Origin: Escherichia coli
Lineage (GTDB): Bacteria; Pseudomonadota; Gammaproteobacteria; Enterobacterales; Enterobacteriaceae
NCBI RefSeq assembly: GCF_001677475.2
Contig: NZ_CP015229.1
Length of the DNA stretch: 64,000 nucleotides
Direction: 5' to 3' (one strand)
Positions 43,163 to 48,222 of this stretch are shown here, in pieces (position 1 is the stretch's first letter; each line of letters begins with the position of its first letter). The notes under the pieces were generated by a model. It did not search any database, had not been told where the DNA came from, and worked only from the letters and a program-made list of their open reading frames with translations. Made by a program: the position numbers and the translations under genes.

Positions 43163-43597
43163 ATGCGACAAATCATCGACACCCTCGCGCAGTTACAGCG
43201 CCTGCGGGATAAATCGGTCAAGGACAAAACCGTCGAGCTGGCAAAACAGAAACAGATTTGCGCGGGCTATGACAACAATATCAAAGCATTAGGTTACCTG
43301 GTGGAGAAAACCTCTGCGGGCGCGGCGGCATCGGTGGAATCGCTGAAAAACGTCAGCGGCTACAAAGGCACCCTGCGCAAGGTGATCGCCTGGCAAGAGC
43401 AGGAAAAAACGCTGGCTAACATCAAAGCCACGCGAATGCAGAAAAACCTGACGGCGGCGGCCTGCGAAGAGAAAGTGGTGGCTTTGACGCTGGACGACAA
43501 ACGCCGCGAGCAACAAGAAAGCGCCACGGCGAAAGCGCAGAAAGCGGTGGACGATATCGCCGTGCAGTGCTGGTTGCGGCACAAATTAGCGGAGTAG
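43163..43597 (+). CDS. lfiJ: Flag-2 export chaperone LfiJ (FliJ homologue)
   Basis: 144-aa coiled-coil protein immediately after the ATPase gene. Confidence 0.7.
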   Translation: MRQIIDTLAQLQRLRDKSVKDKTVELAKQKQICAGYDNNIKALGYLVEKTSAGAAASVESLKNVSGYKGTLRKVIAWQEQEKTLANIKATRMQKNLTAAACEEKVVALTLDDKRREQQESATAKAQKAVDDIAVQCWLRHKLAE

Positions 43598-43599
43598 CC

Positions 43600-43995
43600 A
43601 TGAAAACGGTCATCACCTTCGGCACCTTCGATGTGTTTCATGTCGGTCATCTGCGCCTTTTACAACGCGCCCGCGCATTGGGCGAGCGGCTGCTGGTCGG
43701 CGTGTCGTCAGACGCCCTGAACATCGCCAAAAAGGGCAGAGCGCCGGTTTACCATCAGGATGAACGCATGGCGATTATCGCCGGGCTGGCGTGTGTGGAT
43801 GGCGTATTTCTTGAGGAATCGCTGGAGCAAAAAGCAGAGTATTTGCGGGGGTACAGTGCGGATATTTTGGTGATGGGTGATGACTGGGCAGGGAAGTTTG
43901 ACAGCTTTGCGTATATTTGTGAGGTGGTGTATTTCCCCCGCACGCCATCGGTGTCGACGACGGGGATTATTGATGTGATTAGGGCGCTTTTATAA
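43600..43995 (+). CDS. Cytidylyltransferase (glycerol-3-phosphate cytidylyltransferase TagD-like)
   Basis: N-terminal TFGTFDVFHVGH (HxGH nucleotidyltransferase motif); about 131 aa; RBS GGAG. Confidence 0.7.
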   Translation: MKTVITFGTFDVFHVGHLRLLQRARALGERLLVGVSSDALNIAKKGRAPVYHQDERMAIIAGLACVDGVFLEESLEQKAEYLRGYSADILVMGDDWAGKFDSFAYICEVVYFPRTPSVSTTGIIDVIRALL

Positions 43996-44004
43996 AGTGC
44001 TAAC

Positions 44005-44100
44005 ACCCAGATGTTTGTTTCTTGCCGGATGCGGCGTAAACGCCTTATCCAGCCTACAAGACGTGATCGATCCGTAGGCCTGATAAGCGAAGCGCATCAG
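44005..44100. repeat. REP pair
   Basis: GCCGGATGCGGCGTAAACGCCTTATCC and CGTAGGCCTGATAAGCGAAGCGCATCAGGCAC. Confidence 0.5.
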
Positions 44101-44113
44101 GCACTTCTGTGGT

Positions 44114-46558
44114 TTACCCCAACGCCTCCACAATCACCATTGCCGCCCGTTCCCCCGCCTTGCCATCCATAAACGCGTCGCAATAGTGATGGCGAATCTC
44201 CGCCAGCTTCGCCTGCAACGCCTTCCAGTCAAACGCCTCTGACAGCAGATAACGCAGTTCCGCCATATCGTGAGCGACGGGTAATATCGCGCGGATTCGC
44301 TGATCGGCGCTTTCAGGCGTGGAGTAGCTTTGCTCGCCATCGAGCAGTTCCGTCATGCCCGAAAAGTCGAGCAGGATCACCCGCTTATCAACGTGGATAG
44401 CATCGAAAATAAAGCCGCTGTTATCGGTGAGCACGTAATCGGCCTTTGCCAGTAGCGCCAGCGTGTGACGGGCGGAGTCGGTGCGCTGTTTTAAATGTCT
44501 GCGCGCCAGGGCCAGCGACGCCGCTTCTTCCGGGCGCGCGCAGGTGCCGTGGTGCAGTTTGCAAATCAGGTTCACATCACCGCTTAAGCGCCCCAATTTT
44601 TCTGCCCAGTGGGGCAGGGAGCTTAATGTGCCAAACGTGGGGGCGTAGAGCACCGTAGTTTTACGAAAATCGGGTTGGATATTTTCCGGCAACGAACGAT
44701 CGAAAGTGCCGTTATGCCAGGTGTCGAAGCGCGGGTTGCCAACCACTTTTGCATTGCCGAAATGTTCCAGCGCCTGCTGGCTGTAGTGGCTGTAACACAA
44801 AATGCGCTGATAAAAACGGTTCCAGTCGGCATGGTTCCACGTCTCTTTGGCTAAGCCGTACATGGCGCGGATGTTCACGGGGGAAAGGCCATTGAGCGCA
44901 GGCGTGTGGTAGGGGCTGACCAGGCATTTCACCCGCTGACCGTGTGCCTGCATTTCAGATAAGCGCATACCTTTAAGCTGCGGATCGACGATACTTTTTA
45001 GCGTCGCCAGCATTTCATCAAGAAACGGTTTAAACACGCGGTCGTTGATCACCAGCGTGCAACTCTGCCCCTGCGCCTGTAGGGATGTGATGATGGGGCG
45101 GTACAGCGCGTAGTGAAAGGAGGTTTCCATAAAAAAGCCGATGGTGTCGGCGATGGGTAACGCGGATGGCGTTGTGGCTACGGGCAATTTATTGAAAAAG
45201 TGACTAATATTATCAGTCACTTTTTGCTCGATATCACTAAAGCCCGGTCGCTGGTAACAAAGGCTCGGATAACAGGCCAGCCATTTGTCGGCGCGTAGCA
45301 GCGACTGCCAACACTCTTCAAGTGAGTGCTCATCGTTGCTCATCTGCTGCGCCAGTTGCGGGTAGTAGCGGCTGTTCACCAGATAAGCGCACACTTTGCG
45401 GCAGTCCCGCGCGTGCACCAGCCCCGGCAAACTTTTTAGCATCGTTCCCTGCGAAATTTCGCCGCCAAGGATCATCACCTGCCAGGGAATTTTCGCCAGG
45501 CTGGCCAGCAGAGTGTTCAGCACCTGAATATGTTTCTCCTGCTTGAGAATGACCGCGTCATCTTCCAGTAAAAGGTAGTTTTGCCAGCCCTGCCGTTGCG
45601 CCAGGCGCAGCGCCTGCAAGTGTGACTGCTGGCGGCCCCGTTGACCGTTTTCATCTTCGCAGGCGGCAAGGCGGGTGATCTTCTCAGGCGGAATATGCAG
45701 CAAAGCCAGTTCTTCACGGATCTGTTGTAAGCGATCCGGGCGTTTATCCAGATTCAGCAGAACGATCTGATCGATCACCTGATGGTTGATCGCCTGATGA
45801 TGAGTGGCGTTATGCAGACTCAGATAAGCATTGCGGAGCAGCGGATCGCGGACGATATCCGTAAGCGTCGCGTTTACTGGCGTGCTGGCCCCGAGAATAA
45901 AGTCTTTATCAAAGGTGTTGTGGCTGTGCGAGATACACAGAATCGTGCGCTCACCGGGCAGTTGTAGCGGGTTAACGCTGAAGTTATCGGTGAAACTTTT
46001 CTCTTCACCTAAATTGCAATCGTCATCGTAGCGGTGCTTTTTCAGGTAGTTACGGTGATAGCAAAAGGTGCCGTTGAGGATGTTATGCGAGCCAAAGCAG
46101 CGGCTTTTGAAAATGCGGTTGATATGGCTGTACCAGATGGGGATCTGGTCGGAACCGGAGATGAGCGCCCGGTGTTTTTGCATCATGGCGATGGTGTACG
46201 AGATTTTATCTGCCGGGTAGTAGTCGTCATCGTCCATGCAGAGGATGTATTCGCCGCGCGCCAGTTCGTTGAGCATATTACGTTTTTTGCCCAGCGGCAG
46301 TTTTTCCGGGTGATGGATGTAGCGGATATTGAAGGACTCCGGCTTGCCATTGGTCAGGCGGTCGATGATGTGTTGATGGCTTTGCGGGGAGTCGTCGAGG
46401 ATGACCAGTTCGCGGCGGTCTGCCGGGTAGTCCTGATAGCGGTACATATAGAGCAGGTACAGCAGGAATGCGCCGCGATTCCAGGTTGGCGTGACGACGC
46501 TGACAAATGGTTTTTCGCGGTGGGTGGCGAGTGTTTTGATGATGGTTGGTGTTGGCAT
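44114..46558 (-). CDS. Large multi-domain glycosyltransferase (GT2-like + GT25-like + CDP-glycerol glycerophosphotransferase-like C-terminus)
   Basis: About 815 aa; N-terminal GT-A region with VVTPTWNR and DDDDYY (DxD); middle LLNLDKRPDRL (GT25-like); C-terminal ...LYAPTFG...KLHHG... reminiscent of TagB/TagF; start uncertain. Confidence 0.65.
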   Translation of the reverse strand: MPTPTIIKTLATHREKPFVSVVTPTWNRGAFLLYLLYMYRYQDYPADRRELVILDDSPQSHQHIIDRLTNGKPESFNIRYIHHPEKLPLGKKRNMLNELARGEYILCMDDDDYYPADKISYTIAMMQKHRALISGSDQIPIWYSHINRIFKSRCFGSHNILNGTFCYHRNYLKKHRYDDDCNLGEEKSFTDNFSVNPLQLPGERTILCISHSHNTFDKDFILGASTPVNATLTDIVRDPLLRNAYLSLHNATHHQAINHQVIDQIVLLNLDKRPDRLQQIREELALLHIPPEKITRLAACEDENGQRGRQQSHLQALRLAQRQGWQNYLLLEDDAVILKQEKHIQVLNTLLASLAKIPWQVMILGGEISQGTMLKSLPGLVHARDCRKVCAYLVNSRYYPQLAQQMSNDEHSLEECWQSLLRADKWLACYPSLCYQRPGFSDIEQKVTDNISHFFNKLPVATTPSALPIADTIGFFMETSFHYALYRPIITSLQAQGQSCTLVINDRVFKPFLDEMLATLKSIVDPQLKGMRLSEMQAHGQRVKCLVSPYHTPALNGLSPVNIRAMYGLAKETWNHADWNRFYQRILCYSHYSQQALEHFGNAKVVGNPRFDTWHNGTFDRSLPENIQPDFRKTTVLYAPTFGTLSSLPHWAEKLGRLSGDVNLICKLHHGTCARPEEAASLALARRHLKQRTDSARHTLALLAKADYVLTDNSGFIFDAIHVDKRVILLDFSGMTELLDGEQSYSTPESADQRIRAILPVAHDMAELRYLLSEAFDWKALQAKLAEIRHHYCDAFMDGKAGERAAMVIVEALG

Positions 46559-46599
46559 GGTGTTTGGGTGAGTTAAGGGGTGAATGTGATGAATGTGCG

Positions 46600-46725
46600 C
46601 GCTGATGCCCTCACCCCGACCCTCTCCCACAGGGAGAGGGAGAGAACCAGCGCCGATTTTAATACCGTGCTCGATCGGTTCCCTCGCCCCTTTGGGGAGA
46701 GGGTTAGGGTGAGGGGCAAAGCGCG
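46600..46725. repeat. GC-rich ~120-bp palindromic intergenic repeat (full copy)
   Basis: GCCCTCACCCCGACCCTCTCCCACAGGGAGAGGG ... GGGGAGAGGGTTAGGGTGAGGGG; near-identical copies at 53.96 and 56.24 kb. Confidence 0.5.
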
Positions 46726-46736
46726 CACAGAGCGAC

Positions 46737-47666
46737 TCACGTCAGCAGCGAAAACGCTGAAAGCAGCGGCTCTGCCGCACATAACGACTGAATTTGCTGG
46801 CGAATAAACAGCGCATTTTCACTGGTCCGCCAGCGTTCAAACATGGCGAAGAGGGCGAAAATATCCTCCTTCCGCAGCGGAGAACCATCCAGCGTCCATA
46901 AACTGATTAACGTGCGGATAAGATAAAAATCGCACACCAGCGGGAAATAATCCGCCCCGTCTGCCTGCCCGATCGCATCGTGGTAAACGCGGTAGATCAG
47001 GTAATTACGCAAAATCCAGGGTGAAGTGGTGAAATGCTGCTGCCAGGTAGTTTGCCACTGCGCCTGAAGCTGCTGATGTAACAGGGCTTCGCTGTTGGCG
47101 TCATGCAATGTCAGTAAAGAAACCTGCAACGGCAGCGAGGCTTTGCGCGGGCTTTCCGGCAGAATCGACCAGTCAAACGCAAAACTTCCGAGCAGCGTCA
47201 CCAGCTGGCGTGCCAGCTGTGGCACAGGTGGCAACTGGGCGAACTGTGCCTGTAGCGTACCTTTTCGCGCATGGTCGGCCAGCGCCTGCGGCAGCGTCGT
47301 CAAACGGGCCAGAGTATCGCCATTCTTGCCCGGCATTTTACTGGCGCGGGAGAGCAGGATACCGACGGCATACAGTGACAATTCCGGGGTTAAATCGGCG
47401 AGCGTAAGGGTGCTCAAAATGACCTGGTTTAATATCACATCGCGTGCGGAAAGCTCACTGGCACTCTCTTCCATAGACCGATAGGTGAGCTGTAATTCAA
47501 ACGCACTGGCGTCGTTGAGCACCGCTTCGCAGCTTTCTGGCTCTGTAAGCATCAGACTCAGGCGAATTTCATTTTTCCATACCTTGCGGACATACAAAGG
47601 CGAACCAGGATGTTGTGCAATAAATTTGCGCACAAATTCAGGTTCGTAACATTCAATAAAACTCAT
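46737..47666 (-). CDS. Hypothetical protein within Flag-2 locus
   Basis: Roughly 310-aa ORF, no recognised motifs; start uncertain. Confidence 0.45.
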   Translation of the reverse strand: MSFIECYEPEFVRKFIAQHPGSPLYVRKVWKNEIRLSLMLTEPESCEAVLNDASAFELQLTYRSMEESASELSARDVILNQVILSTLTLADLTPELSLYAVGILLSRASKMPGKNGDTLARLTTLPQALADHARKGTLQAQFAQLPPVPQLARQLVTLLGSFAFDWSILPESPRKASLPLQVSLLTLHDANSEALLHQQLQAQWQTTWQQHFTTSPWILRNYLIYRVYHDAIGQADGADYFPLVCDFYLIRTLISLWTLDGSPLRKEDIFALFAMFERWRTSENALFIRQQIQSLCAAEPLLSAFSLLT

Positions 47667-47793: not shown

Positions 47794-48222
47794 TTATTCC
47801 TGATAAATAAAATCCGCTTCGCTGCCTAAAAAAGACTGAATAAATTCATACTGACGAATCAACAATTCACCGTTTTTATCGTTATACGCCTTACAGCGTT
47901 CGGCTTTTTGTTCAAGTCGTTGCCACAAGCGTTGTGCCGCCTCTTTTTGTACGGCGGGTAACCAGTTAAAAATCTGCTCTAAACCTTCCCGATTGACACT
48001 GACGCCGAGAAATTTCAGCAGGCTGTGGCGTTGTTGGCTGTGGCTGTTTAACTGATCGTAGTGATGCATTATCTCATCATTCACCGCCAGTAATTCCTCA
48101 CTCGCGCGGCGAATCATGCAGATCCGCTGACGATGGAGAAGTTCGCGCAGGGAATCGTAAAGCGCGTCATCGTCACGAATTCCCTGCAACAACGCCTTCA
48201 CCTGTTGTAACCGGATACTCAC
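47794..48222 (-). CDS. lfgN: Flag-2 chaperone LfgN (FlgN homologue)
   Basis: 142 aa, position after flgM homologue. Confidence 0.65.
   Translation of the reverse strand: MSIRLQQVKALLQGIRDDDALYDSLRELLHRQRICMIRRASEELLAVNDEIMHHYDQLNSHSQQRHSLLKFLGVSVNREGLEQIFNWLPAVQKEAAQRLWQRLEQKAERCKAYNDKNGELLIRQYEFIQSFLGSEADFIYQE

What the first reader, a model, noticed from the sequence alone, without database searches (positions are those of the whole stretch)
43600..47666. CDP-glycerol-type glycan modification module embedded in the flagellar locus
Between lfiJ and lfgN lie a small HxGH cytidylyltransferase resembling glycerol-3-phosphate cytidylyltransferase (TagD-like), a roughly 815-aa protein with GT2-like, GT25-like and TagB/TagF-like (CDP-glycerol glycerophosphotransferase) regions, and a 310-aa unknown protein. 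The combination suggests the lateral flagellin or another flagellar part is modified with a glycerol-phosphate-containing glycan. Domain calls are from motifs I recognise, not from a search.
Basis: partly seen in the sequence, partly recalled or inferred. Interest (0 to 1): 0.55.

Follow-up and report, generated by a model that had tools for sequence, protein, structure and literature searches.

The report
Lateral-flagellin glycan glycerol-phosphate modification genes
Three genes inside a second (lateral) flagellar gene cluster most likely make CDP-glycerol and use it, with two sugar-adding domains, to decorate the flagellin with a sugar carrying glycerol phosphate; the same gene set was predicted from genomes in 2020 and sits in about a quarter of complete E. 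coli genomes, but its chemistry has never been measured.

Summary
Between lfiJ and lfgN lie three genes. The first is a 131-aa TagD-like cytidylyltransferase (43600-43995, +). The second is an 815-aa soluble enzyme (44114-46561, -) with GT2, GT25-like and TagF-like domains. The third is a 309-aa protein (46737-47666, -).

The "unknown" 309-aa protein is LafV. It carries only the C-terminal FliB domain (Pfam FliB_C) and lacks the N-terminal Cys motif that holds the [4Fe-4S] cluster FliB needs for methyl transfer. LafA also has no lysine in its exposed centre, so the public "lysine-N-methylase" label is doubtful.

This is variable region 1 of the enterobacterial Flag-2 locus. De Maayer et al. 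2020 described it in silico, naming GT2-1, TagD, TagB and LafV. An orthologous module (~91% nt identity) is in 1269 of 5426 complete E. coli genomes. The window is closest to Pseudocitrobacter.

In 31 enterobacterial loci, tagD and a TagF-like enzyme occur together (18 both, 12 neither, 1 TagF-like alone). Relatives elsewhere pair this glycosyltransferase, or a relative of its TagF-like domain, with other CDP-donor gene sets. This matches the tested C. difficile FtaD and P. aeruginosa PA1091 systems.

Best reading: cytoplasmic O-glycosylation of LafA with a phosphodiester-linked glycerol phosphate. This is an inference and has not been tested. Interest is modest.

The parts
43163..43597 (+). 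lfiJ (FliJ homologue), last gene of Flag-2 cluster 1; context. tagD-like is translationally coupled to it.
   Evidence: NCBIfam TIGR02473 FliJ, 58 bits, above the cut-off. Its stop codon is 2 nt before the tagD ATG.
43600..43995 (+). TagD-like cytidylyltransferase (131 aa). Predicted to make CDP-glycerol from CTP and sn-glycerol-3-phosphate.
   Evidence: Pfam PF01467, E 2e-19. TIGR01518, E 2e-33, below the cut-off. 47% identical to TagD 1COZ over the full length. dN/dS 0.05 against E. coli.
45776..46561 (-). Glycosyltransferase residues 1-262: GT2-family GT-A domain with an invariant DDDD (110-113) DXD motif.
   Evidence: Pfam PF00535, E 1e-17, residues 21-158. Invariant columns in A1 and A3. 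The AF2 model is poor here, with pLDDT below 50 for residues 101-254.
45152..45775 (-). Glycosyltransferase residues 263-470: GT25-like GT-A domain with NLDxRxDR and LEDD motifs.
   Evidence: Model pLDDT 85-95. Top Foldseek hits are COLGALT1/GLT25D1, E 1e-11. PF01755 at 5e-6 in orthologue P0084. Motif conservation shown.
44114..45154 (-). Glycosyltransferase residues 470-815 plus the stop codon: TagF-like (GT-B-type) CDP-alcohol phosphotransferase domain. Motifs: MYGLAK, GNPRFD, YAPTF, KLHH and TDNSGFIFD.
   Evidence: A profile of the domain family (A2) hits Cps3D at 4.6e-14, TagF at 8e-13 and TarL at 3e-7. Pfam PF04464 matches 26 of 27 family members. Foldseek hits TagF 3l7j at E 3e-9, TMt 0.57. 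His670 aligns with TagF His584.
46596..46722 (.). Intergenic pair of inverted GC-rich dispersed repeats between the glycosyltransferase start and the lafV stop. Not a functional part of the module.
   Evidence: Sequence. Found in 4604 of 5426 E. coli genomes, median 5 places per genome.
46737..47666 (-). LafV: a 309-aa protein made only of the FliB_C domain, without the Fe-S Cys motif. Proposed to be a flagellin-recognition or accessory partner of the glycosyltransferase.
   Evidence: Precomputed Pfam PF27117 FliB_C. NCBIfam FliB NF038110 at 48.6 bits, below the 85-bit cut-off, matching profile positions 105-363 of 373 only. AF2 pLDDT 92.7. No relative in the PDB. Next to the glycosyltransferase in 28 of 31 loci.
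47794..48222 (-). lfgN (FlgN homologue), upstream gene on the same strand as lafV and the glycosyltransferase; context.
   Evidence: Annotated flgN in the orthologous E. coli locus. Pfam FlgN in related loci.
61129..62043 (+). lafA, lateral flagellin; proposed acceptor protein.
   Evidence: NCBIfam NF033376 LafA, 667 bits, above the cut-off. Residues 101-210 hold 31 Ser/Thr and no Lys.

Best explanation
The three genes are the variable-region-1 cargo of a Flag-2 (lateral flagella) locus. They most likely modify the lateral flagellin LafA in the cytoplasm before it is exported.

1. Shown by homology only: the TagD-like enzyme condenses CTP with sn-glycerol-3-phosphate to give CDP-glycerol.
2. 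Inferred: the GT2 and GT25-like GT-A domains of the 815-aa enzyme, both with intact DXD motifs, put one or two sugars on Ser/Thr of the exposed central segment of LafA.
3. Inferred from the fold, motifs, gene co-occurrence and the FtaD/PA1091 precedent: the C-terminal TagF-like domain transfers glycerol phosphate from CDP-glycerol to a sugar hydroxyl. This gives a phosphodiester-linked glycerol phosphate, a post-glycosylation modification.
4. Weakest step, inferred: LafV, a FliB_C-only protein that has lost the Fe-S centre FliB needs for methylation, is not a methylase. It serves as a flagellin-recognition or accessory partner of the glycosyltransferase.
5. Expression is tied to flagellar assembly. 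tagD is translationally coupled to lfiJ, and lafV and the glycosyltransferase lie downstream of lfgAMN on the same strand.
For: - Domain identities are supported.
- DXD motifs are invariant: D110-D113 and E333-D334-D335.
- TagF His584 aligns with the invariant His670.
- Co-occurrence in 31 enterobacterial VR1 loci: tagD with a TagF-like enzyme in 18 (17 of the window's own type, plus L029 with a classical TarF-like gene), neither in 12, TagF-like alone in 1, tagD alone in 0. Fisher p = 9e-8, though the loci are not phylogenetically independent.
- A variant whose C-terminal domain is KpsC/S-like (Capsule_synth) instead of TagF-like has no tagD.
- Relatives pair with other CDP-donor cassettes next to flagellar genes. 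For this glycosyltransferase: B. oklahomensis with an Fta-like set, and Plesiomonas with a phosphoramidate-type set. For a relative of the TagF-like domain: B. ubonensis with choline kinase plus a cytidylyltransferase. In C. taeniosporum a TagF-like gene directly follows the flagellin gene.
- Tested precedents: FtaD is a TagF-like CDP-N-methylthreonine:GlcNAc phosphotransferase acting on flagellin glycan. PA1091 fuses a glycosyltransferase and a phosphotransferase.
- No membrane segment is predicted, and dN/dS is 0.05-0.22.
- The LafA centre has 31 Ser/Thr and no Lys.
- LafV lacks the CX4CX3CC motif that is essential in FliB.
- LafV lies next to the glycosyltransferase in 28 of 31 loci, in both gene orders, and also in Burkholderia.
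Against: - No experimental data exist for any Flag-2 flagellin glycan.
- The TagD-like protein scores below the NCBIfam equivalog cut-off (115 against 165 bits). Its second substrate Lys, as I recall TagD, aligns with Gly.
- The TagF-like domain belongs to a large subfamily in which the classical W-H-G catalytic histidine seems to be replaced by an invariant Tyr, so its chemistry could differ.
- One locus (L019) has the TagF-like domain without tagD.
- The subfamily also occurs in an O-antigen-type cluster.
- The N-terminal GT2 domain modelled poorly.
- Nothing here shows which domain touches the protein, or that LafV binds flagellin.
Confidence: 0.6

Rival explanations
1. Same machinery, but it works as a polymerase. 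The GT-A domain(s) and the TagF-like domain alternate, as in the TagF-like capsule polymerases, and build a teichoic-acid-like poly(glycosyl-glycerol phosphate) chain on flagellin rather than a single glycerol-phosphate cap.
For: - GT-A/TagF-like is one of the two archetypal capsule-polymerase architectures, and those gene clusters also carry a glycerol-3-phosphate cytidylyltransferase.
- Cps3D is the best sequence-profile hit of the domain family, at 4.6e-14, and also a fold hit.
Against: - No TPR or oligomerisation domain of the kind most of those polymerases carry was detected.
- Flagellin must pass unfolded through a narrow export channel, which argues against long chains (general knowledge).
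- The tested flagellar relatives add a single phosphodiester group.
Confidence: 0.12
2. The donor is not CDP-glycerol. The small cytidylyltransferase activates another phospho-alcohol, such as phosphoethanolamine, another polyol phosphate or a phosphonate, and the TagF-like domain transfers that group.
For: - The score is below the TIGR01518 cut-off.
- The same fold family includes ethanolamine-phosphate, choline-phosphate and phosphonate cytidylyltransferases.
- TagF-like relatives demonstrably use other CDP donors.
Against: - TagD and TarD are by far the best matches (E 2e-32 and 2e-27, against 9e-18 for the next), at 47% identity over the full length.
- No kinase or other precursor gene lies in the module, which fits a donor made from the common metabolite glycerol-3-phosphate.
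Confidence: 0.12
3. The genes are passenger cargo in an integration hot spot. They modify a non-flagellar glycoconjugate (LPS, capsule or ECA), not flagellin.
For: - VR1 is described as a hot spot that also holds unrelated cargo such as EcoRII/Dcm and fimbrial genes.
- A subfamily member lies in a Wzm/Wzt polysaccharide cluster.
Against: - The glycosyltransferase-LafV pair stays next to flagellar genes across Enterobacterales and Burkholderia.
- tagD is translationally coupled to lfiJ.
- There are no membrane segments, and no flippase, polymerase or Und-P-type genes.
- LafV is related to the flagellin-specific enzyme FliB.
Confidence: 0.08
4. LafV is a working flagellin lysine-N-methylase, as many database records name it, so the module combines methylation with glycosylation.
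For: - Records name it "lysine-N-methylase".
- De Maayer et al. 2020 took LafV as evidence that Flag-2 flagellins are methylated.
- There is real homology to FliB positions 105-363.
Against: - It lacks the N-terminal CX4CX3CC [4Fe-4S] motif. Mutating that motif removed the Fe-S cluster, which the authors found essential for FliB methyl transfer.
- The score is below the NCBIfam cut-off (48.6 against 85 bits).
- LafA has no Lys between residues 101 and 210. Its six Lys lie in D0/D1-type termini, which FliB does not modify.
- RefSeq now calls the E. coli orthologue a hypothetical protein.
Confidence: 0.07
5. The module is a silent relic. Flag-2 is cryptic or inactivated in many strains, so the genes may do nothing in this organism.
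For: From my own recollection, not checked with any tool call here: Flag-2 is reported as cryptic or mutationally inactivated in many strains.
Against: - All three ORFs are intact.
- dN/dS against E. coli is 0.05-0.22, similar to neighbouring flagellar genes at 0.01-0.07.
- The flagellar genes inspected in the window are full length.
Confidence: 0.08

Closest known systems
Flag-2 variable region 1 (VR1) cargo described by De Maayer, Pillay & Coutinho, BMC Genomics 2020 (PMC6993521): GT2-1, TagD, TagB1-8, LafV1-10
   Same: - Same position, between lfiJ and lfgN, and the same gene families.
- Same proposal that teichoic-acid-type glycerol phosphate becomes part of the flagellin glycan.
- An orthologous module is in 1269 of 5426 complete E. 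coli genomes.
   Different: - That work is a gene-content survey only. The passages I retrieved do not mention the GT2-GT25-TagF fusion or the Tyr-for-His subfamily.
- They do not report the tagD/TagF co-occurrence, or that LafV lacks the Fe-S motif. The paper reads LafV as evidence for methylation.
C. difficile Type A flagellin modification (FgtA plus FtaABCD) and P. aeruginosa b-type (PA1088-PA1091)
   Same: - A TagF-like enzyme transfers a phospho-alcohol from a CDP-activated donor onto an O-linked flagellin sugar.
- In PA1091 the glycosyltransferase and the phosphotransferase are fused, as here.
   Different: - The donor there is CDP-N-methylthreonine. It is made by an NTP_transferase-type enzyme, a HAD enzyme and a methyltransferase.
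- Here a TagD-type (HxGH) cytidylyltransferase stands alone, there are two GT-A domains, and a FliB_C partner is present.
- An Fta-like cassette joined to this same glycosyltransferase-LafV pair does exist in B. oklahomensis.
TagF-like capsule polymerases of Gram-negative pathogens (Cps3D, Cps7D, Cps1B, CslB; Litschko et al. 2018, PMC5974469)
   Same: - Multidomain GT-A/TagF-like architecture.
- CDP-glycerol use by some members, with a TagD-type gene in the cluster.
- Best PDB profile hit.
   Different: - Those enzymes polymerise on a lipid-anchored capsule primer.
- Most carry TPR domains, and they keep both catalytic histidines.
- Here the proposed acceptor is a protein-linked glycan, no TPR domain was found, and the first histidine appears to be Tyr.
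Wall teichoic acid enzymes TagD/TarD and TagF/TarF/TarL
   Same: - TagD: 47% identity with the signature motifs.
- TagF: same fold, the His584 equivalent, and the PRxD, PT(F/W) and TD(Y/N)S motifs.
   Different: - The organism is Gram-negative, the genes are in a flagellar locus and the enzyme is soluble.
- Pfam PF04464 is only marginal for this sequence (E 0.014, or 0.002 for the domain alone).
- The W-H-G motif is replaced by M-Y-G.
Salmonella FliB flagellin lysine-N-methylase (Wang et al. 2021, PMC8598068)
   Same: LafV shares the FliB C-terminal domain (PF27117), and both are encoded in flagellar loci.
   Different: LafV lacks the roughly 100 N-terminal residues that carry the CX4CX3CC [4Fe-4S] site, and its presumed substrate has no exposed lysines.
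Human COLGALT1/GLT25D1 collagen galactosyltransferase (GT25)
   Same: Tandem GT-A domains, with the second of GT25 type. It is the top structural match.
   Different: 12% sequence identity. The overall rmsd is large (about 13 A), and the first domain of the query model has low confidence. This is a fold resemblance only.

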